From the NCBI GenBank assembly GCA_021650895.1, contig CP091278.1, forward strand, positions 431,659-463,658: a stretch of 32,000 bases of DNA, given 5' to 3'. This DNA is from Candidatus Jettenia sp. (GTDB taxonomy: Bacteria > Planctomycetota > Brocadiia > Brocadiales > Brocadiaceae). Shown piece by piece: positions 3,941 through 25,760 of the stretch (the first letter of the stretch is position 1; each line of letters opens with the position of its first letter). The notes under the pieces are model-generated. The model was not told where the DNA came from and searched no databases. It saw nothing but the letters and a program-made list of their open reading frames with translations. The position numbers and the translations under genes were made by a program.

Positions 3941-4414
3941 ATGGCACAAGACATCTTAGCTGATTTAAGTACTTTGAATTTGAATACACCGATAGTGGAT
4001 ATTGAGGGTATTCGGACTATTATACCACATCGTTATGAAATGGAACAACTTAACGGTATTCTGAAATTCGATATGGAGCAGGGTATCATTGTAGGGTATA
4101 AAGATATTTCAAATAATGAATTTTGGGTACGCGGGCATATTCCTGGCAGGCCCCTCATGCCGGGGGTAATTATGTTGGAAGCAGCTGCGCAGTTATGCAC
4201 CTATTATTACAAACAAGCGACAAAGGACGATAGATTCCTTGGTTTTGGTGGTATAGATAAAGTCAAGTTTCGGGGAAAGGTCATTCCTGGTGATAGACTT
4301 ATTCTGATTGCAAAAAATAAGGAACTCCGCTCGCGAAGGGCTATCTTTGATACACAGGGAGTGGTAGACGGAAAGCTCGTTTTTGAGGGCATTATTATTG
4401 GTATGGTTGTTTAA
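3941..4414 (+). CDS. FabZ/FabA-like hot-dog-fold 3-hydroxyacyl-ACP dehydratase (orphan second copy), 157 aa
   Basis: IIPHRYEMEQL...FWVRGHIPGRPLMPGVIMLEAAAQL matches the FabZ signature (PHRxPF..., GHFPxxPxMPGV, EAxAQ) with the catalytic His and Glu present. It diverges from the canonical FabZ at 13975. Confidence 0.75.
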   Translation: MAQDILADLSTLNLNTPIVDIEGIRTIIPHRYEMEQLNGILKFDMEQGIIVGYKDISNNEFWVRGHIPGRPLMPGVIMLEAAAQLCTYYYKQATKDDRFLGFGGIDKVKFRGKVIPGDRLILIAKNKELRSRRAIFDTQGVVDGKLVFEGIIIGMVV

Positions 4415-8292: not shown

Positions 8293-8421
8293 TTATCCTT
8301 CCTTTTTCCATGTAAATAATATAACAAATATAAGTGCAACAGCAACAATTACGATTGTTTTTGGACTAATATCCGGAATAACTGATTTTTCCATAGATAA
8401 AGATAGCAATTTACCGATCAT
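8293..8421 (-). CDS. Possible 42-aa single-pass membrane peptide (MIGKLLSLSMEKSVIPDISPKTIVIVAVALIFVILFTWKKEG) coupled to lpd
   Basis: Hand-translated. GGAGGT lies 9 nt upstream of the ATG at 8421. Its TAA (8295..8293) directly abuts the TTG start of lpd (8292). One clear hydrophobic helix. No family recognised. Confidence 0.4.
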   Translation of the reverse strand: MIGKLLSLSMEKSVIPDISPKTIVIVAVALIFVILFTWKKEG

Positions 8422-8517
8422 GATAGTATAACCTCCTTTTTCGGATTAAAGATTTACGAAATATTTTTTGTTTAGATACCCGTTACATACAGAAATCATA
8501 GATTCTCATTAATTATA

Positions 8518-8552
8518 AAGGCACATCAAAGATGTTGAGATTGATGTGCCTT
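8518..8552 (-). terminator. Hairpin terminator-like element after the radical SAM gene (end of the six-gene operon)
   Basis: AAGGCACATCAA-N11-TTGATGTGCCTT, a perfect 12-bp stem, about 27 nt after the stop at 8579. It is followed on the minus strand by TATAATTAAT, which is T/A-rich but not a clean U-tract. Confidence 0.5.
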
Positions 8553-8578
8553 GTAAATCAAGTTGAATAATCGCTTCG

Positions 8579-10039
8579 TTATGTGGTAACAGTTTCCATG
8601 ACAGAGTTTGAAACAGGTACTGTACCTGATTTGTAGCAGTCCTTATAATAATCACCTGAATCATATAATTCTTTCAAGTTCTGCAATACCTGCTCAAATA
8701 CTTGCTTCCAATCTGAGCCTACTCTAAATGCAAACATAGAATTTCGTGGATTTTTCGTTGTCTTAATAGAATTTCTGAAGCGTGTTCTTAAATTATCACC
8801 TGCATAAATATGATCATAAACATATTGCATACCATCGATAAAGTTTTCTAATGTCATATCTACAAAACGATGAACTACATGAGCAGTATCATAATATTGC
8901 CAATCCTCTGGATAATTCTTTCTGAAAATTCTTTTTTCCGAATCCAATCGTGCATAAAGCTGTGTTTTTGGGAAGGGGCAGTTAATACCGAAGGTAAGAA
9001 TATCAATATTATTTTCCAATATAAACTCGGTCATTCTTTTAAAGGAATCTTTATCATCTCCATCAGCCCCAAATACTACCGATCCCCAGACAACTAACCC
9101 TGCATTATGAATCTTCTGAATGCAGTCAAAATAACTATCAGTTCCCAGTTTAAGATTTACCCGTTTATTCATCTTTTGTAATACCGCTTCGTTGGTAGAT
9201 TCTATACCAATAAGCATGCCAAAATTACCACTTTTTGCCATATAATCCAGCGTTTCCGGGTCTTGAGAAATATTTAAGGCGGTGAATCCTAACCAATCTT
9301 TATGGATACCACGTTCGACCATACCCTTAAAGAGATCCCGTGCCCTTTCGTTTGATTTTTTACCGTGACCATAAAAATTGTCTTCTGCCAGCATTAAACC
9401 CTTATAATCTGTTGCTGCCATCTCATCGAGTACGTCTTCATAGGGTCTTTCTCTGAACTTTCTCCCCTGGAAAGTAGGCACACTACAGAAATCACAATAG
9501 TTGGGGCATCCTTTTGTTGTAACGATAGAAGAAAATTTATAGTTGTACTTTTTCTTCATCAATTCACGATTAGGATATACCTTTTTCATCAAACTTAAAG
9601 GGGGAAGCCCTCCCTGATAGGTCTTTTTCAGCTTTCCTTCTTCAAAATCTTTTATAACCTGAGGCCACACTTCTTCAGCTTCTCCTACAAAAACTGAATC
9701 AACATACTTTGCGGCCTCTTCTGGCATTACCGATGCATGTATTCCACCCATTATTACCGTCATACCCTTTTTTTTGCACGCTGTAGCAATCTTATAAGCC
9801 CTTGGAGACTGGTAGGTTACTGCTGTGATACATACAAGGTCTACGGGTTTAAAGGTAATTTCGTCTTTATCATCGATTGCCAGTTCAATATTTTCATCTA
9901 TAATATCAAATTCCCAATCACCTGGTGTAAGGGCAGCAATATAAGCAAGATTCAAAGGCATTTGGACAATTACTGTAATACTTTCTTCTCCATGCCTACC
10001 CGGTTTATGTGGATTGATCAACATCATTTTTTTACTCAT
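8579..10039 (-). CDS. B12-binding-domain radical SAM enzyme (class B radical SAM), ~486 aa
   Basis: N-terminal flavodoxin-like cobalamin-binding region followed by the radical SAM core TTKGCPNYCDFCSVP (CxxxCxxC). I prefer the ATG at 10039 (MSKKMMLINPH): GGAGG lies 8 nt upstream and it forms an ATGA overlap with the stop of the desaturase gene. Confidence 0.85.
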   Translation of the reverse strand: MSKKMMLINPHKPGRHGEESITVIVQMPLNLAYIAALTPGDWEFDIIDENIELAIDDKDEITFKPVDLVCITAVTYQSPRAYKIATACKKKGMTVIMGGIHASVMPEEAAKYVDSVFVGEAEEVWPQVIKDFEEGKLKKTYQGGLPPLSLMKKVYPNRELMKKKYNYKFSSIVTTKGCPNYCDFCSVPTFQGRKFRERPYEDVLDEMAATDYKGLMLAEDNFYGHGKKSNERARDLFKGMVERGIHKDWLGFTALNISQDPETLDYMAKSGNFGMLIGIESTNEAVLQKMNKRVNLKLGTDSYFDCIQKIHNAGLVVWGSVVFGADGDDKDSFKRMTEFILENNIDILTFGINCPFPKTQLYARLDSEKRIFRKNYPEDWQYYDTAHVVHRFVDMTLENFIDGMQYVYDHIYAGDNLRTRFRNSIKTTKNPRNSMFAFRVGSDWKQVFEQVLQNLKELYDSGDYYKDCYKSGTVPVSNSVMETVTT

Positions 10040-11499
10040 ATCATTTGCCTCCAATTCTCCATAATTAAATTAGCAACACTCCAACCCGAAGAGACCACAG
10101 CGGAAATTCCAGGGCCTGGTCTTGTCCAATGTCCAGCTAAATATAAATTGTCAACAGGCGTCTCATGTGGCAACCTATTTTCCCACATTTGATCTGCGGT
10201 AACCGCCCAACCGTAAGCGGCTCCATGGGTATTTAACGTGTAACGCTCCAGGGTTTTTGGAGTAGCCGCCTCTTTTACTTCGATATATTTTCTAATTTCA
10301 GGAAGGTATTTCTCCAATCTCTTTATCGTGTTTGCAATCATGTCTTCTTTAAAAGATTTCCAGTTTTTAACATCCTTGTATGCCTCCTCTTTCATGGAAA
10401 CAACTACTGAAATTATTTGTTTGTTTGATGGCGCAAGGGTTGGGCATATCTTTGTTGGAACTGATATATACATCCACTCGTCATCCAGATAACGACTATC
10501 TGTAGCAGTATGATAAAATCCTCTTTTTAGGCTCGTTAAATCTATGTTGCTTCCCAATCCTAGATATAAAAGAAAAAAAGAGCAACTCTCTTTCATTCCT
10601 TCAATTTTTTTAAGGAATGATACATCAATTTTATCTTTTAGTAACTCAAAAAAAGTTTGCCGAACATCAATATTTGAAACCACCAAGCCTGATACTATCT
10701 CTTTACCGTTTTGCAGTTTAACACCAATAACGGTTTTATTATTCAATAATATTTTTTCGGCTCTGGATGATAACATAACGTGTCCGCCAAAATCAATAAA
10801 TTTCTTAAAAATTGTATTAGCAAACTCTTGTGTACCGCCCACAGGGAAAAAGGCACCATCCTTGAGATAATTAATCATCATTTGACACATGGCAATCGCA
10901 GAGGCCTGAGTAGGGGGGAGTCCTATGTAACCCCATTGACCGGAAAGTACCATCTTGAGTTCTTCAGTATTAAAATAATCATGTAACATATCATGGTAGG
11001 TATGGTTTTTATATTTTTCGATAATTTGGCTTTTTTCATTATTGAATGTAGCACGATAGAGTTTTATAAAATCCTGGAAGAAATTTTTAATAGCATCTTT
11101 TTCTGAAGGGTAACGGTTTTGTAAGCGAGCAATATATTCATCCAGATCTGCGGGAATTTCAATGCTGAAGCCGGGGAATATCAGGTGATCCATAGGATCC
11201 AGAGGGTAGAAATCCATTTCAATCCCAAGTATTTTTAAACAGCGGCCGACAACACTCCACTTTCCACAACCTCCAATATGGTGAACTGCTGCATCAAAGG
11301 TAAAACCTTTTCTCTTAAAAGAAGTGCAATAGCCGCCAGGAATAGAATGCTGCTCTACCAGGAGAACCCTCTTTCCACTTTTGGCAAGAAAGGTACCACA
11401 AACTAAACCAGCAATGCCCGTACCAATAATAATTACATCATAATGAGGGTACAACAGATCATTTTTTGTGGATCGAATATAACCGGTGGAAGGCACCAT
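10036..11499 (-). CDS. FAD-dependent oxidoreductase of the phytoene desaturase (CrtI/CrtD-like) family, 487 aa
   Basis: N-terminal dinucleotide fold YDVIIIGTGIAGLVCGTFLAKSGKRVLLVEQ...PGGY, with size and C-terminal blocks typical of CrtI-family desaturases. Starts 3 nt after the stop of the KS-like gene. Confidence 0.8.
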   Translation of the reverse strand: MVPSTGYIRSTKNDLLYPHYDVIIIGTGIAGLVCGTFLAKSGKRVLLVEQHSIPGGYCTSFKRKGFTFDAAVHHIGGCGKWSVVGRCLKILGIEMDFYPLDPMDHLIFPGFSIEIPADLDEYIARLQNRYPSEKDAIKNFFQDFIKLYRATFNNEKSQIIEKYKNHTYHDMLHDYFNTEELKMVLSGQWGYIGLPPTQASAIAMCQMMINYLKDGAFFPVGGTQEFANTIFKKFIDFGGHVMLSSRAEKILLNNKTVIGVKLQNGKEIVSGLVVSNIDVRQTFFELLKDKIDVSFLKKIEGMKESCSFFLLYLGLGSNIDLTSLKRGFYHTATDSRYLDDEWMYISVPTKICPTLAPSNKQIISVVVSMKEEAYKDVKNWKSFKEDMIANTIKRLEKYLPEIRKYIEVKEAATPKTLERYTLNTHGAAYGWAVTADQMWENRLPHETPVDNLYLAGHWTRPGPGISAVVSSGWSVANLIMENWRQMI

Positions 11500-11502
11500 G
11501 AA

Positions 11503-12741
11503 TTATCTTTTGTATTTAGAGATAATGAGGGAAGAGTTATTGCCTAATCGTGAGAAGGAATTTATGAGAATGTTCTTGGCTGGTAAAGTACTTTTCTGGG
11601 TCACATAACTTAGGTCACAATTCTCGTCTCGTTCCTTATAATTAATGGTAGGTGGAATTATGTGGGTGTTAACAGACATGACTGCAGCTACTGTTTGCAA
11701 TGCACCCGAAGCATCAAAACACTCGCCTGTCATAGATTTAATGGCTGTTACAGGGAGAAGATTTGCCCGCATACCAAAAACTTCTTTAATAACCTGGGTT
11801 TCCATCGCATCGCCGTATACCCCAGAATAAGCATTAGCAGATATGTAGGAGATGTCGTGGAGCGTGAGACCGGCATCCTGAATGGCGTTTATAACAGCTC
11901 TTCTGTTACCATCTATTTGATAATCCTTACTTATAGCCATTTTCGGCTCGAATGCTGTCCCATAACCTTTGACTTCTGCATAAATGTGTGCGTTCCTTTT
12001 CAGTGCATTTTCCAGAGTCTCAAGGACGACCAGGGCTGATGCTTCACCAATAACCATTCCGTTGCGTCTCTTATCAAAAGGTGCACAAATTTCCAGGGTT
12101 CCATAGGTGCTTCCCGATAATATTTTAGAATTATGCGACCCCCAAAATATATCATGAGTCAATCCATGTACACCACCTGCTAATACAGCTTTAACACGGC
12201 CCATACGGAGGAAATCAGAGGCATAGATGACCGCATCGATACTGCTGGTAACACCATTTGAAATGGTTGTATTCAGCCCGGTTGCCTTACAGAAAATCGA
12301 TGCCCGGCTTGCTGGTGCATTTAATACCGTATTAGGAAAGTCCATAGGGTTAACATAATTCGGACCTTCACGCAATGACTGGAAATCAAAAGAGCTAATG
12401 CTGTCTATGCTGCCATAGGTAGATCCCACAACAATACCCAGCTCTTCTTCGTTGTATGTAGTATTTTCAAGATTGGCATCTTTGATGGCAAGAACCGCTG
12501 CGGATGATACAAGAAGGGATGTACGGTCAATGTGGCGAATTCCCTTTTGTCCAAGGTAAACTTTTGCATCAAAATCAGAAATTTCTCCCGCTTGCTTGCT
12601 ATTAAAGTTACTTACATCAAATAAGGTGATAGGCTTTATGCCTGATACACCGTTGGTTAAATTTTCCCAGAAAACATCTTTACCTGTTCCAATAGGCGAG
12701 AGAACCGAAACACCCGTAATAACAATCCTCGTTTTTTCCAT
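11503..12741 (-). CDS. Beta-ketoacyl synthase-like protein lacking the Cys-His-His triad (KS-beta / chain-length-factor-like partner), ~412 aa
   Basis: Thiolase-fold KS homolog that aligns along its whole length with the adjacent FabF-like protein. Its catalytic positions read Val165 (NTTISNGVTSS), Asn (YISANAYSG) and Glu (KSMTGECFDASG). The ATG at 12741 shares one base with the upstream TGA (TGATG); an alternative TTG at 12744 gives a 4-nt overlap. Confidence 0.85.
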   Translation of the reverse strand: MEKTRIVITGVSVLSPIGTGKDVFWENLTNGVSGIKPITLFDVSNFNSKQAGEISDFDAKVYLGQKGIRHIDRTSLLVSSAAVLAIKDANLENTTYNEEELGIVVGSTYGSIDSISSFDFQSLREGPNYVNPMDFPNTVLNAPASRASIFCKATGLNTTISNGVTSSIDAVIYASDFLRMGRVKAVLAGGVHGLTHDIFWGSHNSKILSGSTYGTLEICAPFDKRRNGMVIGEASALVVLETLENALKRNAHIYAEVKGYGTAFEPKMAISKDYQIDGNRRAVINAIQDAGLTLHDISYISANAYSGVYGDAMETQVIKEVFGMRANLLPVTAIKSMTGECFDASGALQTVAAVMSVNTHIIPPTINYKERDENCDLSYVTQKSTLPAKNILINSFSRLGNNSSLIISKYKR

Positions 12742-13967
12742 CAAGAGCCTCTTTTAAATTTTTTCACAACTAAACAGCTGTTGTTACCACCAAATGCATG
12801 AGCATTATTAAGCGCAATGTTTACTTCCTGTTTTCTTGCAACGTTAGGAACATAATCCAGGTCGCATTCCGGATCGGGGGTCTCATAATTAATCGTAGGG
12901 GGGATAATATCATTTTGAACAACTAAAGCGCAAGTAATTGCCTCAATTGCGCTTGCAGCTCCCATGGTATGTCCTATCATTGATTTTATTGAACTGATAG
13001 CGAGATGTTTTGGTTTATCCCCAAACACCTTTTTGATTGAAATCGTTTCTGCTTTATCGTTTGCGGGTGTGCCTGTTCCGTGAGCACTGATGTACTGAAC
13101 ATCTTCAGGTCTTAAATCTGCATTTTTTAATGCCTTTTTCATTGCAGAGACGACACCTTCCCCGTCTGGATGGGGGATGGTTATATGATATGCATCGCAA
13201 CTGAGTCCATAACCGGTTATTTCCGCATAAATAGGGGCATTCCTCTGTAATGCATGATCAAGTGATTCTAGAAGGAGCATACCAGCTCCCTCACCAACCA
13301 TCATGCCTTTTCTGTTTTTATCAAAAGGCTGACATATTTCCGGAGCAATAGCGCCTAGTCGTGCAAATCCCGTATATGCAACCTTCGAAAAAGGGTCTGA
13401 ACCACCAGCGATCATCATGTCCACCCTTCCGAATTGAATTAAATCGTATGCATATCCGATTGCATAATTGCCGGCTGCACAGGCGGTGGGAATAATAGTA
13501 TTGGGACCTTTGAATCCAAATTCGATGGCAATATTGGCAGGGATATTATTACATGGATGCATTAAAAACAGATCGGGAGCAACTTTGTCTTCGCCATCTC
13601 TATGCCTTATATAATTGACTTTTTCCAGGATTTGTATTTCTCCCGCAGTCGTACCTACAGAAACACCTATCCTTTCCAGATTAATCGCATTCAAATCGAG
13701 CTGGGCGTCATTTAAGGCCAGCTTTGCGGCTGCAATTCCGAATTGTGAACCTTTACCAATTTTTTTAAGAACACCGTTCTTTATATAGTTTGAATAATCG
13801 AAGTTCTTAACTTCACATCCTTTATGGACTTTGTATTCAGAGGTATCAATACATGATACCTTATCGACACCTGATACCCCGGCAATGAGGGAATTCCAGA
13901 AAACATCCTTTCCTGAACCGATAGGGGTAATCATTCCTACGCCTGTTATAACTACGCGTTTATTCAT
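12741..13967 (-). CDS. fabF: Beta-ketoacyl-ACP synthase II-type condensing enzyme (active KS), 408 aa
   Basis: Complete catalytic set: PTACAAG (Cys), DAYHIT, SAHGTGT (His), [14 protein letters not shown] (Lys/His), C-terminal FGGNNS. Confidence 0.9.
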
Positions 13968-13974
13968 AATTTAT

Positions 13975-14427
13975 TTATAGTAATGCACTTTTTTCAGCAA
14001 TTCCAAAAGTTAAAGTAGCCTTAGCAACTGCTTTTTCATCAACTTTTACCGTTGCCTGAATAATAGCTCCTTTCGATACGATCTTTTCTACATTGATTTC
14101 TATAAGGAGTTGATCGCCAGGGAAGACGGGTTTTGTAAATCTTGCATTGCCAATTGATGCCAGTAAAAAAACCGTATCCTTACCGCTTTGTATAGGAGGA
14201 AGGCTTTTCCTGAATAGGATAATAGAAGCCTGTGCCATTGCCTCGATAATTAAAACGCCAGGCATAATAGCAAAGTCAGGGAAATGTCCGACAAAAACTG
14301 GCTCATTGCCAGAAACATTTTTTACACAAATAATTTTTTTCCCTTCTTCAAACTCAATAACTTTATCAATAAATATAAAAGGATATTTTTGAGGGAGAAG
14401 GGATCTGATTTCCTCAAAAGATATCAT
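13975..14427 (-). CDS. fabZ: 3-hydroxyacyl-ACP dehydratase FabZ, ~150 aa
   Basis: LLPQKYPFIFIDKV...FVGHFPDFAIMPGVLIIEAMAQAS is the canonical FabZ signature. Start is ambiguous: the track ORF begins at a TTG (14436), and I prefer the ATG at 14427. Confidence 0.9.
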   Translation of the reverse strand: MISFEEIRSLLPQKYPFIFIDKVIEFEEGKKIICVKNVSGNEPVFVGHFPDFAIMPGVLIIEAMAQASIILFRKSLPPIQSGKDTVFLLASIGNARFTKPVFPGDQLLIEINVEKIVSKGAIIQATVKVDEKAVAKATLTFGIAEKSALL

Positions 14428-14503
14428 ACTGTACAAATCTTCTCTTCTTGCATCATTGCCTAATTGTCCTGTAAATTATCATACTCTGTGTGTCAGATGT
14501 ATT

Positions 14504-14773
14504 TTAAGATGAAAGTTTTCCGCTTTCAGCTAAGACAGATTTTGTTAAATCAATCGTAGCTGCCAGCGATGTAATATCAACAAGCTTTTCTTCCGGAATT
14601 TGCACCTTAAATTTCTTTTCAATAAGAGCAAGAATTTCAAGGGCTAAAAGAGAGTCAATTTCAAGATCTTTAAAGAAATTTGCATCTCTTTTAGCCCAAA
14701 TTTCTTTTTCATCCAGCTCTGTAACCTCAGCCACAATAGCGGTTACACCTTTTTCAATCTCTTCTGCGTTCAA
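14504..14773 (-). CDS. Cluster-dedicated acyl carrier protein, 89 aa (track ORF is over-extended at the 5' end)
   Basis: Phosphopantetheine site LEIDSLLALE (DSL). TTG start at 14773 with AAGGAG 7 nt upstream (14786..14781). The 21 extra N-terminal codons of the track ORF lie in what looks like the 5' UTR. Confidence 0.85.
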   Translation of the reverse strand: MNAEEIEKGVTAIVAEVTELDEKEIWAKRDANFFKDLEIDSLLALEILALIEKKFKVQIPEEKLVDITSLAATIDLTKSVLAESGKLSS

Positions 14774-14850
14774 AATTATTCTCCTTATTAATAATCTGCC
14801 TAACAAACGACATAGCATCCACTCAGCATAATCCAAAAATAAGAAAGACC

Positions 14851-14879
14851 ATCGTATCAGACATAATTTACATTGTCAA
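14851..14879 (-). promoter_or_regulatory. sigma70-like promoter of the ACP-to-radical-SAM operon (TTGACA-17 nt-TACGAT)
   Basis: Minus-strand reading: TTGACA (14879..14874), a 17-nt spacer, then TACGAT (14856..14851). It lies about 80 nt upstream of the ACP start. Confidence 0.45.
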
Positions 14880-14920
14880 TAATATTCTTTAACTCGCCTG
14901 ATTATGTATAGGAATCGAAA

Positions 14921-14999
14921 TGTAGGGCAACCATTTAGGGTTGCTATCCATGATCCCACATATTCAAATGAGGAGGTAAGGATAAAACCCTGCCCTACA
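14921..14999 (+). repeat. REP/MITE-like structured repeat, copy A (full length, module 2 degenerate)
   Basis: TGTAGGGCAACCatttagGGTTGCTATCC...AAACCCTGCCCTACA. Terminal inverted repeat TGTAGGGCA/TGCCCTACA and an internal GCAACC/GGTTGC hairpin. Confidence 0.7.
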
Positions 15000-15146
15000 T
15001 GAAACAAATTTACAACGTCTGATAATATATATTATGTTACAATTCCTGATTGTTTTTCCTGGCACCTTGATTAAATTGATTAGATTCCTGAATTTTTGCC
15101 CTTTCTAGATTATTATCACAAAAGCGGATTCGATATAATACCATAT

Positions 15147-15758
15147 TTATTTGCTTTTTCTTGAAGCCATTCTCTCCTGTTTTGATTCCTGTTTCTTCAG
15201 TTTGCTCAGTTTGCCTAATGCACGGTATATTTGTCTTTCCAACATAGTCTCGTACTCAGACAGATCTTTCAGTTTGGTTTTATCCTCAGCTATTTTCAAT
15301 GCTTTTAACTGTTTCAACTCAACATTTGTCCTCTTTCTTGTCCTGAAAAATCCTTGCTCGTACTCCTGAATACAAGAAGCGGCGTAGTCCATTATCTGAC
15401 CTTCAATCTTCAGACATCGCTTCAGTCGCCACATACTCGAAATAATACGATCTGCAATAATCGATTCAATCTCATTTGATGGTTTTAATTCTCGTGTAAG
15501 GCGATTTCTTAACTCGTCAAGATCAGCTTCGTTTTCGCCATCTATTAATATTTCTTTACTAAAGATAGACTCTGTTATACTTTTGCTTTCCTTAGATTTC
15601 AACGGGTCTGAAGATGTTTTGGTCTTAACTTCCGTATCTTTCCCGTGTATTGTTTTCGATTGATCAACTATCGTATTCATTATCTTATCGATCTTTTCTT
15701 TATTAACATTATCCGGATGCTTTTCACGTAAAACGTCGTCTTTTAGAATTGTTGACAT
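15147..15758 (-). CDS. Hypothetical lysine/glutamate-rich, probably coiled-coil protein, 203 aa
   Basis: Intact ORF with AAAGGAAAAAG upstream of the ATG. No motif I recognise. The C-terminal half (RIISSMWRLKRCLKIEGQIMDY...LKQLKALKIAEDKTKLKDLSEYETMLERQIYRALGKLSKLKK) looks helical. Bracketed by repeat copies A and B. Confidence 0.5.
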   Translation of the reverse strand: MSTILKDDVLREKHPDNVNKEKIDKIMNTIVDQSKTIHGKDTEVKTKTSSDPLKSKESKSITESIFSKEILIDGENEADLDELRNRLTRELKPSNEIESIIADRIISSMWRLKRCLKIEGQIMDYAASCIQEYEQGFFRTRKRTNVELKQLKALKIAEDKTKLKDLSEYETMLERQIYRALGKLSKLKKQESKQERMASRKSK

Positions 15759-21822: not shown

Positions 21823-23022
21823 TTAAATAGCAAATAACAGTTTAGGATTTAAACCTAATGAATTTAGCTGTTGTTGGATTTCCTGCTTATAGAGAGGATT
21901 CATAATAATGACATTATCAGGTATATGATTTTTTAATTCTTCTGGTAAGATTATTTTTTGACCGGTTCCTGGCATATAGCATCCTTTCTTCCGAGGATTA
22001 ATATCAACAACATAGGTAATTTGATCCTTAATATTTAGTATATTTAAAAAGCTCACACTTTTGCTTCCTGCGCCCCATATAACCGTACTTTCATTATTTT
22101 GCTCAATGTGCTGCAGGGTGTTTTCCCACTCTTCTAATTTTATCCTGCATTTATAAGAAAAATCGCGGACGAGGGTTAGCAATTCTTTTATCTTATTCGA
22201 ATTCCTTGCTAATGATTTTCCAACATCTCTTGCAGGAGTTGCTTCAATACCTATAAATTGATTCCCAAAACTCTCAAATAGCTTAACCGTATCAAATTTT
22301 GAGAGATTAAATACCCTCTCAAGCGAAGTCGCTCCAAAGTAGGAACAGTGCTCATAAATTATATCCCATACTGAAAGCTCTTTGAGAATGAGTAATATGT
22401 TGGGGACTTCAAAATATAAAATGGGATTGTCTTGTCCATCGATAGTTGAACGTAGTGCGGTCAGAAATTCAAAAGGATTTGGAATATGCTCAAATACATG
22501 GCGACTACATATTAAATCTCCCTGATAATGAGAATAGTTCGCTGAATAATAATCTCTGATAAACGTTATTCGATCTGATGATTGTACAGGAGAAAGATTT
22601 CCCCGGTAGCTTGGGTCAAAACCCGTTCCGTAATTTTTTCCTATTTTACAGATTAAAGATAAAAAGTCACCTTTACCCGAACCGATTTCAATTATTTTTT
22701 TGTCATATAATTGGTAATCTTCTACAAGCCTTTTGGCGACTGATTCAGCATAATTTTGATAATATTTTGAGAAATGGAGAGAGTTATCATACTCTTCAGT
22801 ATATTCCATCAATGAAGAATCAAAGGCAATGTTGGAAATAAATCCACAATCGCTGCAACATGCCAGTTCTATATCTCCCCTGAGACAATTAAGAGCTTCT
22901 TCTTTACTTCTCCATAAAATACCAACATGAGCCGGAGCATAAGGTATTGTATAAAAAGTTGAAAATTGCGATGATAAACAAACAGGACATTTAGTTACCC
23001 TTTGTTCAGACTGTAGTGACAT
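21823..23022 (-). CDS. Zinc-ribbon + class I SAM-dependent methyltransferase with C-terminal Methyltransf_14-like domain (NDP-sugar C-methyltransferase family), paralog 1, ~399 aa
   Basis: CPVC...CSDCGF zinc ribbon, SAM motif IIEIGSGKGDFL, WDIIYEHCSYF block, C-terminal VIWGAGSKS...VVDINPRKKGCYMPGTGQKI. Start moved to the ATG at 23022 (MSLQSEQ) because the 29 upstream codons of the track ORF are translated repeat copy D. Confidence 0.75.
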   Translation of the reverse strand: MSLQSEQRVTKCPVCLSSQFSTFYTIPYAPAHVGILWRSKEEALNCLRGDIELACCSDCGFISNIAFDSSLMEYTEEYDNSLHFSKYYQNYAESVAKRLVEDYQLYDKKIIEIGSGKGDFLSLICKIGKNYGTGFDPSYRGNLSPVQSSDRITFIRDYYSANYSHYQGDLICSRHVFEHIPNPFEFLTALRSTIDGQDNPILYFEVPNILLILKELSVWDIIYEHCSYFGATSLERVFNLSKFDTVKLFESFGNQFIGIEATPARDVGKSLARNSNKIKELLTLVRDFSYKCRIKLEEWENTLQHIEQNNESTVIWGAGSKSVSFLNILNIKDQITYVVDINPRKKGCYMPGTGQKIILPEELKNHIPDNVIIMNPLYKQEIQQQLNSLGLNPKLLFAI

Positions 23023-23076
23023 TGAGAAGCAATTCCTTTCGTATGATAGATATAAATTGTATAGGAATTTCAATTC

Positions 23077-23128
23077 TGTAGGGCAAACCTTTAGGTTTGC
23101 GGAATACAAGGCTAAAGGTTTGCCCTAC
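23077..23128 (+). repeat. REP-like structured repeat, copy D
   Basis: TGTAGGGCAAACCtttaGGTTTGCggaatacaaggctaaaGGTTTGCCCTAC. The left arm (23078..23089) can pair with either the proximal GGTTTGC (23094..23100) or the distal GGTTTGCCCTAC (23117..23128). Confidence 0.75.
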
Positions 23129-24488: not shown

Positions 24489-25679
24489 TCATTCAGATTC
24501 TACCGTGATAAGCTCTGTAGCAAGACCTCTCCTCTGAAGATCGTGCTGTATTTCTTCACAGTAAATCGGATTCATTACAATAGCAATATCTGGTTTATAT
24601 TCTTGTAAAAAAACTGGGCCTACGATTTTATGTCCTGTCCCTGGCATATACATTCCATGTTTATATGGATTTATATCTACGACGAACTCAATTTCATCAG
24701 TAATATTGAGAGAAGTTAAAAACGTAACACCTTTAGATCCTGACCCCCATATAACAGCGCGTTTCCCGCTTTGCTTTATCTCCTTGAATTTATATCTCCA
24801 CCTGTCTAACTGTTTCCGATAATTTTGAGAAAAGTATAGCACGTCTTTTGATAGCTCTTCAAAATCATCTTCATCCCTGAAAAGAGTTCCATTCGTTCCG
24901 TTGCCGGGTCGGGCCTCTATCATTAAATATTGATCATTATAGTCCCTGGTAAGATTGATAACATCAAAACCACACATACGGAAGAGACGGGCGAGTGATC
25001 CCCGGCTGAAATAGGAGCAGTGCTCATAATAAATATCCCAAAACCCCAGACCTCGAAGGATAGGAATGACATCGGGGACCTGAAAAAAAACTACAGTATC
25101 TTGTTGATTCTCCAATGAACGCCGAACAGTTCGTACGAAATCGGCAGTAAGATGAATATGTTCCAAAGTCATCTTACAACAAATGAAATCACCGTGGTAG
25201 TTGGCATATTTTTCCGAGTAGAAATCTCGTATAAAGGTGATCCGGTCTCTCACTTCACTTTGATTTCGTTCACTGATATAACTCGGATCAAATCCAATGC
25301 CTCGGTTTTTACCTAATTCGCAAAGCATGGTTAAAAATTCACCTTTCCCGCACCCTATTTCGATTATATCTTTATTATGGAGATTGTGCCGGCGTATCAA
25401 TTGATTTGCCAGGTTCCGATGAAACGTGTTGAATGTAGGCGAAAACCCCTGAGTCTCTTCATATCTGGACGAATACTCATGCATACGGGGATCAAATGCG
25501 ACATTAGAAATAAACCCGCAGTTTTGACAAAACCCCAGTGCAATATCTCCTTTAGGATAATTTACCGCTATTTCCCGGCTTGGCATAAGAAGAACACTAT
25601 GAACAGGAACATTCTTCATCTCACAAAATACTGATATATCGCGCTCACCGCACGTGTAACAAATGTAGTTTGCTGGCAT
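24489..25679 (-). CDS. Zinc-ribbon + class I SAM-dependent methyltransferase (NDP-sugar C-methyltransferase family), paralog 2, ~396 aa
   Basis: CYTC...CQNCGF, IIEIGCGKGEFL, WDIYYEHCSYF, VIWGSGSKG...VVDINPYKHGMYMPGTGHKI. Collinear with paralog 1. I prefer the ATG at 25679 (MPANYIC): AAGGAG lies 11 nt upstream and overlaps the GTG used by the track. Confidence 0.75.
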   Translation of the reverse strand: MPANYICYTCGERDISVFCEMKNVPVHSVLLMPSREIAVNYPKGDIALGFCQNCGFISNVAFDPRMHEYSSRYEETQGFSPTFNTFHRNLANQLIRRHNLHNKDIIEIGCGKGEFLTMLCELGKNRGIGFDPSYISERNQSEVRDRITFIRDFYSEKYANYHGDFICCKMTLEHIHLTADFVRTVRRSLENQQDTVVFFQVPDVIPILRGLGFWDIYYEHCSYFSRGSLARLFRMCGFDVINLTRDYNDQYLMIEARPGNGTNGTLFRDEDDFEELSKDVLYFSQNYRKQLDRWRYKFKEIKQSGKRAVIWGSGSKGVTFLTSLNITDEIEFVVDINPYKHGMYMPGTGHKIVGPVFLQEYKPDIAIVMNPIYCEEIQHDLQRRGLATELITVESE

Positions 25680-25760
25680 TGTTTGCTTCACTCCTTACTT
25701 ACGAACGCTTTTTAATTGATGTCTGTAGTAAAAAAAGACCATTTTTCTTCGCGGTTATCC

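What the first reader, a model, noticed from the sequence alone, without database searches (positions are those of the whole stretch)
8518..14879. Six-gene ACP / FabZ / KS / dead-KS / CrtI-like desaturase / B12-radical-SAM operon: a ladderane-type lipid cluster with unresolved chemistry
Seen directly: six co-directional genes are packed with gaps of about 70, 7, -1 (or -4), 3 and -4 nt. A TTGACA-17-TACGAT promoter (14879..14851) and a 12-bp hairpin (8518..8552) bound them. The content is a dedicated ACP, a FabZ, an active FabF-type KS, a KS paralog with no catalytic triad, a CrtI/CrtD-family FAD desaturase and a cobalamin-domain radical SAM enzyme. There is no ketoreductase, enoyl reductase, acyltransferase or thioesterase. 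This is not a housekeeping fab operon. It looks like a type II PKS or polyene-style elongation module fused to two redox/radical tailoring enzymes. As far as I recall, this same order is the anammox-specific cluster (kuste3603-3608 in Kuenenia, from memory) that comparative genomics (Rattray et al. 2009) proposed for ladderane cyclobutane lipid synthesis. Also from memory, heterologous expression in E. coli (Javidpour et al. 2016) did not yield ladderanes. The enzymology of C-C ring formation is therefore still undescribed, which makes this the best candidate in the window for a genuinely new biochemical system.
Basis: partly seen in the sequence, partly recalled or inferred. Interest (0 to 1): 0.9.

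Follow-up and report, generated by a model that had tools for sequence, protein, structure and literature searches.

The report
Anammox "Cluster I" ladderane-candidate lipid operon
This is the Jettenia copy of a six-gene lipid operon long suspected, but never proven, to help anammox bacteria build their ladder-shaped membrane lipids; it is a known cluster, and near-copies of it also turn up in unrelated uncultured bacteria.

Summary
Six co-directional minus-strand genes (8579-14773) have the stated spacings, a promoter whose -35 and -10 elements are conserved across Brocadiaceae, and a stable 12-bp hairpin. The window is about 97% nucleotide-identical to Candidatus Jettenia ecosi. The genes are the orthologue of Kuenenia kuste3603-3608 ("Cluster I"). 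Four products nearly match solved structures: amxACP, amxFabZ, amxFabF2 and the triad-less amxFabFmut. The CrtI-like flavoprotein and the B12-domain radical SAM enzyme have no characterised close relative. A 2026 review says the ring-forming enzyme is still unknown. So this is an already known candidate cluster with unresolved chemistry.

One point goes beyond the literature. The cluster is not exclusive to anammox bacteria. The same gene order, with the same "anammox-specific" FabZ and KS signatures, occurs in MAGs of 50-69% GC labelled Acidobacteriota, "delta proteobacterium" and Spirochaetales. In several of these it lies directly next to homologues of the second anammox cluster (kuste2803-2805 plus ECH and SDR). 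This suggests one ancestral pathway. It also weakens the argument that exclusivity implies ladderane synthesis.

The parts
14851..14879 (-). Sigma-70-type promoter: TTGACA, 17 nt, TACGAT, with TG before the -10 hexamer.
   Evidence: The -35 element and the key -10 positions are invariant in 8 Brocadiaceae genomes.
14504..14773 (-). amxACP, a dedicated acyl carrier protein of 89 aa. TTG start, with the RBS AAGGAG at 14786-14781. The DSL phosphopantetheine serine motif is present.
   Evidence: PF00550. Matches K. stuttgartiensis amxACP 7auf at E 3.8e-44 over residues 1-88, and ACP chain 9s5i_E at 4.9e-41.
13975..14436 (-). amxFabZ, a 3-hydroxyacyl-ACP dehydratase variant. The start is TTG 14436 or ATG 14427.
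   Evidence: FabA-like domain and NF000582 at 154 bits. Matches K. stuttgartiensis amxFabZ 8ayd at E 1.7e-73. His/Glu catalytic pair present; Ile at S. brodae position 69, Thr at 96 and Val at 115.
12741..13967 (-). amxFabF2, an active FabF-type ketosynthase with Cys163/His296/His333.
   Evidence: Matches PDB 9s5h_B at E 3e-252.
11503..12744 (-). amxFabFmut, a ketosynthase paralogue without the catalytic triad (Val/Asn/Glu). It is the chain-length-factor-like partner.
   Evidence: Matches PDB 9s5h_C at E 4.1e-238. It has the same substitutions as Kuste3606 in Rattray Table 2.
10036..11499 (-). CrtI/CrtISO-family FAD flavoprotein ('PDH', the kuste3607 orthologue). GxGxxG motif at residues 25-30.
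   Evidence: Amino_oxidase and NAD_binding_8 domains. TIGR02734 scores 170.8 bits, below its cut-off of 238.1. Best solved structure is CrtI 4dgk at E 2.7e-26.
8579..10039 (-). B12-binding-domain radical SAM enzyme (the kuste3608 orthologue), 486 aa from ATG 10039. CxxxCxxC motif = GCPNYCDFC.
   Evidence: PF02310 and PF04055. It is 87% identical to the K. stuttgartiensis protein and 94% to the B. sinica protein. AF2 model pLDDT 91. Nearest folds are AprD4, MgmA, TsrM, TokK and OxsB at 12-19% identity.
8518..8552 (-). Stem-loop with a 12-bp stem, 26 nt after the rSAM stop codon. A likely transcript-end structure.
   Evidence: dG -20.8 kcal/mol, z -4.3. The U-tract is weak (UUAUAAUUAAU) and the simple terminator scan did not call it.

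Best explanation
The region is the Jettenia orthologue of the anammox 'Cluster I' operon (kuste3603-3608). It is one promoter-to-hairpin transcription unit encoding a private, ACP-tethered, type II FAS/PKS-like module plus two tailoring enzymes. Shown for near-identical orthologues by others: amxFabF2 and the triad-less amxFabFmut form a KS/chain-length-factor-like heterodimer. This heterodimer decarboxylates malonyl-amxACP and self-primes to acetoacetyl-amxACP. amxFabZ dehydrates short (C6 much better than C8; C10 and C12 hardly at all) 3-hydroxyacyl chains, and only when they are carried on amxACP. Inferred here: the ketoreductase is supplied in trans. The likeliest source is the SDR of the second anammox cluster (PPTase-rSAM-KS-KSmut-FadH-like-ECH-SDR-MIase), which lies directly next to Cluster I homologues in non-anammox MAGs. 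No enoyl reductase is present, so the chain grows as a short enoyl or polyenoyl-amxACP, as in highly reducing type II PKSs. The CrtI-like flavoprotein adjusts unsaturation by desaturation or isomerisation. The B12-domain radical SAM enzyme, probably together with its paralogue in the second cluster, carries out radical C-C chemistry on the tethered chain. The modified omega-end is then extended by housekeeping FAS II. In anammox bacteria the end product is most likely the ladderane fatty acids. My confidence differs by part. That this is Cluster I: about 0.97. That the cluster contributes to ladderane lipids: about 0.6. The specific polyene-then-radical-cyclisation order: about 0.3.
For: Identity: gene order and 73-99% protein identity to Jettenia, Brocadia and Kuenenia loci; 96.7% nucleotide identity to J. 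ecosi; near-identical solved structures for four products. The complete six-gene order is seen in 31 Brocadiales/Planctomycetota-labelled species representatives, spanning Brocadiaceae, Scalinduaceae and basal groundwater or sediment lineages. The anammox rSAM clade has 100/100 bootstrap support. Operon structure: tight or overlapping junctions, a conserved promoter and a stable hairpin. Biochemistry of orthologues: heterodimer formation, malonyl-amxACP decarboxylation and acetoacetyl-amxACP formation; the closest structural neighbour of amxFabF2 is the ishigamide polyene KS 6kxe; amxFabZ chain-length preference and ACP specificity. [quoted passage not shown] The link to the second cluster comes from contiguity in L042, L043, L051, L166 and L167, with best matches in the same order (rSAM 57-60%, KS 53-58%, KSmut 39-43%, ECH 42-43%, SDR 57-59%). 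The absence of an ER, and the presence of a FadH-like dienoyl reductase and an ECH in the partner cluster, fit conjugated-enoyl intermediates.
Against: No experiment links any Cluster I protein to ladderanes. Expression of kuste3603-3608 in E. coli gave no new fatty acids, although all six proteins were detected. kuste3607 shows no CrtI activity. [quoted passage not shown] The heterodimer did not elongate hexanoyl-amxACP in vitro. Orthologous clusters with the same signature residues occur in non-anammox phyla, where ladderanes have never been reported. The rSAM fold is generic class B; its closest sequence or fold relatives include methyltransferases (MgmA, HpnR) and the non-cobalamin enzyme AprD4, so a cyclase role is pure inference.
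Confidence: 0.6

Rival explanations
1. Cluster I makes a lipid or polyketide other than ladderanes. Candidates include a methyl-branched fatty acid, with the B12-rSAM acting as a C-methyltransferase on an unactivated carbon, or another tailored short acyl unit. Its association with ladderanes would then be coincidental.
For: The same six-gene order and the same FabZ and KS signatures occur in MAGs labelled Acidobacteriota, 'delta proteobacterium' and Spirochaetales, with 50-69% GC. The best sub-threshold NCBIfam hits of the rSAM include the methylases HpnR and PhpK; the nearest solved sequence relative is the glutamine C-methyltransferase 9ccb. E. coli expression produced no ladderanes. From my own knowledge: anammox bacteria also contain 10-methylhexadecanoic and other branched acids.
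Against: The cluster is conserved in every anammox lineage sampled and highly expressed. A dedicated ACP, a KS/CLF pair and a short-chain FabZ are not needed for simple mid-chain methylation. The lipids of the non-anammox carriers are unknown, so their existence does not show a non-ladderane product.
Confidence: 0.2
2. Cluster I supplies only the linear C6-C8 part (or a short primer) of ladderane fatty acids. The ring system would be built by other enzymes and joined later (the 'type b' scheme).
For: amxFabZ and the heterodimer prefer C6-C8 substrates, which matches the length of the linear part of ladderane acids. This is the interpretation favoured by the structural papers.
Against: The linear part is at the carboxyl end and so would be made last in FAS direction. 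This scheme gives no role to the co-transcribed flavoprotein and rSAM. The earlier idea that the dead KS does the coupling is rejected by its own structural study.
Confidence: 0.15
3. It is an ordinary housekeeping fab operon, or a carotenoid or aryl-polyene pigment cluster.
For: The FabZ, FabF and CrtI-like domains match these families. Weak ApeI/ApeP-like hits fall on the FabZ.
Against: The canonical FAS II genes lie elsewhere (kustd1386-1391). amxFabZ does not act on canonical ACP. The cluster lacks KR, ER, FabD and FabH. kuste3607 fails to replace CrtI. The PDH is below the CrtI family cut-off. No aryl-polyene starter or lipid-anchoring genes are present.
Confidence: 0.03

Closest known systems
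Kuenenia stuttgartiensis kuste3603-3608 ('Cluster I'; amxACP, amxFabZ, amxFabF2, amxFabFmut, PDH, B12-rSAM)
   Same: Same six genes in the same order and on the same strand. The dead-KS substitutions are the same (Val/Asn/Tyr/Gly/Lys/Glu). The amxFabZ Ile69 signature is the same. Protein identity to Kuenenia loci is 73-93%.
   Different: The host genus differs (Jettenia). The junctions are tighter: KS and dead KS overlap here, whereas the tblastn hits for them lie roughly 100 nt apart in the Kuenenia loci. No PNPOx gene follows the rSAM, unlike in Brocadia sinica.
Second anammox lipid cluster, kuste2802-2805 (PPTase, B12-rSAM, FabF, non-canonical KS), plus FadH-like, ECH, SDR and MIase
   Same: It has a paralogous B12-rSAM (55% identical) and a KS plus triad-less KS pair (47% and 37-38%). 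It is present elsewhere in the Jettenia genome (L054). Its homologues lie contiguous with Cluster I homologues in non-anammox MAGs.
   Different: It is not in this window. It has no ACP, FabZ or CrtI-like gene. The residue at the Cys position is Phe (Rattray Table 2 for Kuste2805; also the third dead KS of the delta MAGs).
Highly reducing type II PKS KS/CLF systems (ishigamide Iga11/Iga12) and aromatic type II PKS KS/CLF (actinorhodin)
   Same: An active KS is paired with an inactive paralogue encoded next to it, together with a discrete ACP and dehydratase and no enoyl reductase. Iga11 (6kxd) is a strong sequence hit at E 6e-99, and the related entry 6kxe is the closest structural neighbour of amxFabF2.
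   Different: Both KS proteins are closer in sequence to FabF than to PKS KS or CLF (375 bits against 335 and 257 bits). The dead KS has Val rather than the Gln typical of aromatic CLFs (the Gln is from my own knowledge). No polyketide product is known.
Class B (cobalamin-domain) radical SAM enzymes: HpnR, HpnJ, BchE, PhpK, MgmA/QCMT, TsrM, TokK, OxsB; NCBIfam TIGR04072 'rSAM_ladder_B12'
   Same: An N-terminal Rossmann B12-type domain, a CxxxCxxC radical SAM barrel and a C-terminal helical domain.
   Different: Identity to any solved member is only 12-19%. All NCBIfam scores are far below cut-off (TIGR04072 scores 89.5 against 360). Substrate and reaction are unknown.
Desulfotalea psychrophila and Geobacter FAS-like clusters with rSAM and 'phytoene dehydrogenase' genes (Rattray 2009), and antiSMASH 'ladderane' BGCs in non-Planctomycetota
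   Same: These are precedents for ladderane-like clusters outside anammox bacteria.
   Different: Those reports concern looser similarity, mainly to kuste3335-3352. The MAG clusters found here share the exact six-gene order and the amxFabZ and dead-KS signatures of Cluster I.

Membership tests
Anammox Cluster I operon (kuste3603-3608) | Six genes ACP-FabZ-KS-triad-less KS-CrtI-like-B12 rSAM, co-directional and contiguous. | tested here: met
.
Anammox Cluster I operon (kuste3603-3608) | An amxACP-type carrier protein. | tested here: met
   Matches K. stuttgartiensis amxACP 7auf at E 3.8e-44. Canonical ACPs score only about 1e-6 to 1e-8.
Anammox Cluster I operon (kuste3603-3608) | An amxFabZ with a bulky residue at position 69 (Gly in canonical FabZ) and non-basic residues at positions 96 and 115. 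| tested here: met
   Ile, Thr and Val at these positions. 8ayd matches at E 1.7e-73.
Anammox Cluster I operon (kuste3603-3608) | amxFabF2 with an intact Cys-His-His triad, followed by amxFabFmut without it. | tested here: met
   C/H/H against V/N/E. 9s5h_B matches at 3e-252 and 9s5h_C at 4e-238.
Anammox Cluster I operon (kuste3603-3608) | Orthologues of the kuste3607 flavoprotein and the kuste3608 rSAM. | tested here: met
   PDH is 73% identical and rSAM 86-87% identical to Kuenenia loci. The rSAM clade has 100/100 bootstrap support. The PDH family is sharply bounded.
Anammox Cluster I operon (kuste3603-3608) | The host is an anammox (Brocadiales) bacterium. | tested here: met
   96.7% nucleotide identity over 14.9 kb to Ca. 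Jettenia ecosi J2.
Anammox Cluster I operon (kuste3603-3608) | The cluster is exclusive to ladderane producers, as claimed in the literature. | tested here: not met
   The same order occurs in non-Brocadiales MAGs: L001 and L004, L041 (SerRS confirms Blastocatellia), L042 and L043, L047 and L167.
Anammox Cluster I operon (kuste3603-3608) | The product is a ladderane lipid or a precursor of one. | not testable with these tools
   No experimental link exists in the literature either.
NCBIfam TIGR04072 rSAM_ladder_B12 | Whole-protein score at or above the curated cut-off of 360 bits. | tested here: not met
   89.5 bits.
Phytoene desaturase family (TIGR02734 crtI_fam) | Score at or above the cut-off of 238.1 bits, and phytoene desaturase activity. 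| tested here: not met
   170.8 bits. kuste3607 did not replace CrtI in vivo (Javidpour 2016).
Canonical FabF (TIGR03150 / NF005589) | Score at or above the cut-off, and a Cys-His-His triad. | tested here: inconclusive
   The active KS scores 478.5 against 493.75 (below the equivalog cut-off) but 459.8 against 387 (passes the subfamily model), and its triad is present. The dead KS scores 317.6 and 309.4, both below cut-off, and has no triad.
Type II PKS KS/CLF pair | An obligate heterodimer of an active KS with an inactive paralogue. | not testable with these tools
   Shown for the Kuenenia and B. fulgida orthologues, about 90% identical to the window proteins by eye from the alignments (preprint; chains 9s5h_B and 9s5h_C).
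Type II PKS KS/CLF pair | Gln replaces the active-site Cys in the CLF (a feature of aromatic PKSs; from my own knowledge). | tested here: not met
   Val at that position.
Class B cobalamin-dependent radical SAM | An N-terminal B12-binding domain plus a CxxxCxxC radical SAM core. | tested here: met
   PF02310 scores 44.1 bits (cut-off 32.1) and PF04055 scores 53.2 bits. The GCPNYCDFC motif is visible in the translation. The fold matches TsrM, TokK, OxsB and MgmA.
Class B cobalamin-dependent radical SAM | The enzyme actually binds and uses cobalamin. | not testable with these tools
   The top fold match, AprD4, has the same architecture and is classed by the 2026 review as unrelated to the B12-dependent radical SAM enzymes; that it does not use cobalamin is from my own knowledge.

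The most novel reading that the evidence does not exclude
Cluster I and the kuste2802-2805 cluster are two halves of one older, laterally spread 'multi-rSAM plus KS/CLF' lipid pathway. This pathway survives as a single contiguous supercluster in uncultured bacteria labelled Acidobacteriota, 'delta proteobacterium', Thermodesulfobacteriota and Spirochaetales. If those organisms make ladderane-type or related radical-cyclised lipids, then ladderanes are not an anammox-only trait. The minimal gene set for them would then be defined by what the superclusters share.
Probability: 0.2. Interest if true: 0.85.

Novelty: already known. Interest (0 to 1): 0.4.

Why it matters
How cells build five fused cyclobutane rings is one of the best-known unsolved problems in lipid biochemistry, and this operon is the leading genetic suspect. 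Finding it in a Jettenia genome adds nothing new in itself. The comparative result does change how the evidence should be read. The argument that the cluster is 'exclusive to ladderane producers' no longer holds. The contiguity of Cluster I with the kuste2803-type cluster in other phyla points to a larger, testable gene set: KS/CLF pairs, two or three B12-rSAMs, PDH, ECH, SDR and possibly MIase. That set could guide reconstitution, and may help explain why expressing six genes alone in E. coli produced nothing.

Tried and rejected
- An exact-sequence look-up of the window rSAM found nothing. The strain is not in that index, so I identified it through the 99% protein match and 96.7% nucleotide identity to J. 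ecosi instead.
- Promoter and terminator pattern scans were no better than shuffles. I therefore relied on cross-genome conservation and folding energy.
- Rfam found no riboswitch or other RNA family in the window.
- The metagenome scan returned mostly distant (28-38% identical) B12-rSAMs and few extra orthologues.
- The 'Thermodesulfobacteriota' locus L064 (GC 40%, nested within the Scalindua paralogues) looks mis-binned, so I did not count it as non-anammox evidence.
- Tree support for equating the third rSAM of the delta MAGs with kuste2803 is weak (30/100). That link rests on best-hit identity and shared gene order.
- I rejected the housekeeping fab operon, carotenoid cluster and aryl-polyene cluster readings (see rivals).
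- I found no compositional sign of recent transfer in Jettenia: cluster GC is 38.9% against 38.1% for the window.

Full report
**Observation.** The region holds six minus-strand ORFs. After correcting two starts, the genes are:
- ACP, 14504-14773. It has a TTG start 7 nt after AAGGAG, and the 89-aa product aligns from residue 1 with K. stuttgartiensis amxACP.
- FabZ, 13975-14436.
- KS, 12741-13967.
- Second KS, 11503-12744.
- CrtI-like flavoprotein, 10036-11499.
- B12-domain radical SAM enzyme, 8579-10039. It starts at ATG; homologues begin at residue 5-8 of the longer TTG ORF.

The TTGACA-17-TACGAT element lies at 14879..14851. Pattern hits of this kind are not enriched in the region (21 found, 25 +/- 6 expected in shuffles). 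An alignment of the upstream regions of eight Brocadiaceae genomes tells a different story. TTATTGACA and the TG-n-TA-nn-AT positions are invariant while the surrounding sequence diverges. I therefore accept this as the promoter.

The 12-bp hairpin at 8552..8518 folds at -20.8 kcal/mol with z = -4.3.

Pfam and NCBIfam give the stated domain content. No KR, ER, AT or TE lies in or next to the cluster. The neighbours are a 203-aa protein without family hits upstream, and a 42-aa ORF, lpdA and an alpha-glucan phosphorylase downstream.

**Whose genome, and which cluster.**
- The rSAM is 99% identical to a protein of Candidatus Jettenia ecosi J2.
- The window is 96.7% nucleotide-identical to that contig over 14.9 kb. 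The lineage is Brocadiaceae.
- All six proteins are 95-99% identical to J. ecosi, 74-97% to Brocadia and 73-93% to Kuenenia loci, in the same order.
- The Kuenenia order kuste3603 (ACP), 3604 (FabZ), 3605 (FabF), 3606 (non-canonical FabF), 3607 (phytoene desaturase-like) and 3608 (radical SAM) is documented in Javidpour 2016 and in the 2026 preprint.

**Protein-level tests.** Four products nearly match solved structures:
- amxACP 7auf, E 3.8e-44.
- K. stuttgartiensis amxFabZ 8ayd, E 1.7e-73.
- The two ketosynthase chains of 9s5h/9s5i, E 3e-252 and 4e-238. 9s5i also carries an ACP chain. These entries fit the amxFabF heterodimer structures of the preprint, but the preprint text held here does not name the codes, so that link is inferred.

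The first KS keeps Cys163/His296/His333. The second has Val/Asn/Glu, with Tyr and Gly at positions 300 and 302, exactly as for Kuste3606. The FabZ has the published amxFabZ signatures: Ile at position 69 where canonical FabZ has Gly, and non-basic residues at 96 and 115.

The flavoprotein is below the CrtI-family cut-off (170.8 bits against 238.1). The rSAM is far below every curated family, including TIGR04072 'rSAM_ladder_B12' (89.5 against 360). A confident AlphaFold model of the rSAM (pLDDT 91.2) matches only the generic class-B architecture: AprD4, MgmA/QCMT, TsrM, TokK, OxsB and CysS at 12-19% identity. No reaction can be transferred from these.

**State of knowledge.**
- Rattray 2009 proposed these clusters.
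- Javidpour 2016 expressed kuste3603-3608 in E. coli. All six transcripts and proteins were detected, but no ladderanes or intermediates. kuste3607 did not replace CrtI.
- Dietl 2023 showed that amxFabZ prefers C6 substrates (C8 is more than ten times slower; C10 and C12 are hardly converted) and acts only on amxACP.
- The May 2026 preprint shows that amxFabF2 and amxFabFmut form a KS/CLF-like heterodimer. It decarboxylates malonyl-amxACP and forms acetoacetyl-amxACP but does not elongate hexanoyl-amxACP. The ishigamide polyene KS is the closest structural neighbour of amxFabF2.
- An August 2026 review states that the ring-forming enzyme remains unknown.

The cluster is already known and intensively studied.

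**Distribution test.** I scanned one genome per GTDB species with an rSAM profile and mapped all six window proteins onto the loci.
- The complete six-gene order is present in 31 Brocadiales/Planctomycetota-labelled species representatives. Further copies are cut by contig ends.
- In one genome, Anammoxibacter OFTM214 (L081), the rSAM orthologue stands apart from the other five genes.
- The same order also occurs in MAGs labelled Blastocatellia (L041), 'delta proteobacterium' (L042 on a 1.8-Mb contig, and L043) and Spirochaetales (L047).
- It occurs in two Acidobacteria MAGs found through the protein index (L001, L004) and in metagenome contigs L166 and L167.
- These loci have 50-69% GC, against 36-52% in the anammox loci.
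- In L041, a seryl-tRNA synthetase 3 kb upstream is about 70% identical to many Blastocatellia enzymes. That contig is genuinely acidobacterial. The other taxonomic labels are the submitters' own.
- In every such cluster the first KS keeps its triad and the second lacks it. The FabZ has Ile or Leu at position 69 and non-basic residues at 96 and 115, and the ACPs share the amxACP sequence pattern.
- In neighbour-joining trees the anammox Cluster I rSAMs are monophyletic (100/100). They group with the non-anammox six-gene-cluster rSAMs to the exclusion of the paralogues (73/100).
- The PDH family is sharply bounded: identity is at least 44%, then drops to 39% or less. It includes about a dozen 81-91% identical relatives of the delta-MAG protein, most of them from JGI metagenomes. 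No isolate is named.

The published statement that the cluster is encountered exclusively in ladderane producers therefore does not hold at the level of gene order and signature residues. Looser 'ladderane-like' clusters outside Planctomycetota had already been noted.

**A larger unit.** Jettenia carries elsewhere (L054) the second anammox cluster: PPTase, B12-rSAM, KS, triad-less KS, a FadH-like flavoenzyme, ECH, SDR and an MIase-like protein. This corresponds to kuste2802-2805 plus downstream genes.

In L042, L043 and L167 the six genes are followed directly by two more B12-rSAMs, a KS, a triad-less KS and an ECH; in L042 and L043 an SDR follows, and L167 ends at the ECH. L051, whose contig starts inside this tail, shows the same series. 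In the delta MAGs the tail's triad-less KS has Phe at the Cys position, as in Kuste2805. These tail proteins match the Jettenia second-cluster proteins best and in the same order: rSAM 57-60%, KS 53-58%, dead KS 39-43%, ECH 42-43% and SDR 57-59%. L166 shows a variant with an MIase and a ferredoxin.

Tree support for the rSAM part of this equation is weak (30/100). The link rests on identity ranking and synteny. I read this as one ancestral pathway that is split into two loci in anammox genomes.

**How it most likely works.** The steps shown for orthologues are self-priming by the KS/CLF-like heterodimer on amxACP, and short-chain dehydration by amxFabZ that is specific to amxACP.

The remaining steps are my inference:
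1. The ketoreductase comes in trans, most plausibly the SDR of the partner cluster.
2. With no enoyl reductase, the chain grows as a short enoyl or polyenoyl-amxACP, as in highly reducing type II PKSs.
3. The CrtI-like flavoprotein desaturates or isomerises the chain.
4. The B12-domain rSAMs perform radical C-C chemistry on the tethered chain.
5. The modified omega-end is then elongated by housekeeping FAS II. This places the rings at the distal end and leaves a C6-C10 linear part at the carboxyl end, as seen in ladderane acids.

Against this reading:
- Heterologous expression was negative.
- Polyunsaturated intermediates have not been detected, and labelling data are discordant.
- The non-anammox orthologues exist.
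- The rSAM could equally be a methyltransferase.

My confidence is about 0.97 that this is Cluster I, about 0.6 that it contributes to ladderanes, and about 0.3 for the specific order of steps.

**Rivals.**
- A non-ladderane product, such as methyl-branched or otherwise tailored acyl chains: 0.2.
- Synthesis of only the linear part or a primer: 0.15.
- A housekeeping fab operon or a pigment cluster: 0.03, effectively excluded by published biochemistry and the missing genes.

**Verdict.** The novelty class is 'already known'. What this analysis adds is a caution and a lead. The cluster is not exclusive to anammox bacteria. Its contiguity with the kuste2803-type cluster in other phyla suggests the gene set that should be reconstituted together.

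Noticed in passing
window 8293-8421 (-): A 42-aa ORF (MIGKLLSLSMEKSVIPDISPKTIVIVAVALIFVILFTWKKEG) with a strong RBS (AAAAGGAGG). Its stop codon abuts the TTG start of lpdA. It is 38/42 identical in Brocadia sinica, where it is a called gene. It looks like a single-pass membrane micro-protein.
   Followed up: partly
window 3941-4414 (+): A second, divergent FabZ-like gene. It scores below both FabZ cut-offs, has a weak ApeI-like hit, and has Thr rather than Gly or Ile at the tunnel position, with basic residues at 96 and 115. It is conserved at 79-99% identity in the same position relative to Cluster I across Brocadiaceae.
   Followed up: partly
window 15147-15758 (-): A 203-aa Lys/Glu-rich protein with no Pfam or NCBIfam hit, immediately upstream of the promoter. 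A 46-61% identical homologue occupies the same position in Brocadia and Loosdrechtia loci, but no hit was found in the Kuenenia or Scalindua loci.
   Followed up: partly
L005 11557-11982 versus window 8422-8578: Brocadia sinica has a PNPOx-like gene between the rSAM and the 42-aa ORF. The Jettenia window has only the hairpin there.
   Followed up: no
L081 (Anammoxibacter sp. OFTM214) 10001-11416: The Cluster I rSAM orthologue (74% identical) has none of the other five genes within 10 kb upstream. It is the only anammox locus seen where the operon is broken.
   Followed up: no
L044, L045, L046, L073; L042 11443-12993: A third B12-rSAM type, 58-60% identical to the window enzyme, was seen among the retrieved loci only in Brocadiales- or Planctomycetota-labelled MAGs (SCS1bin.38, nzgw511, CSMAG_693, Bin_313). 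There it stands alone. It groups with the rSAM that directly follows Cluster I in the delta MAGs. No Brocadiaceae or Scalinduaceae copy was retrieved.
   Followed up: partly
L064 (labelled Thermodesulfobacteriota): This contig has 40% GC, and its rSAM nests next to the Scalindua kuste2803-type paralogue. It is probably a mis-binned Scalindua contig.
   Followed up: partly
L169/L170 6208-11404: A variant cluster: ACP-FabZ-KS-KS-YjbQ-PDH, with no adjacent rSAM. ACP is 78% and KS 73% identical to the window proteins; GC is 54%.
   Followed up: no
window 14920-15000: A perfect 10-nt inverted repeat, ATGTAGGGCA / TGCCCTACAT, with 61 nt between the arms. It lies in the intergenic region upstream of the promoter.
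   Followed up: no
window 21823-23109 and 24489-25691 (-): Two clearly paralogous proteins of about 400-430 aa with an N-terminal Cys-rich motif and a methyltransferase-like core. They sit in a sugar-nucleotide, glycosyltransferase, sulfotransferase and flippase region (21.8-31.6 kb). I read this from the translations only.
   Followed up: no
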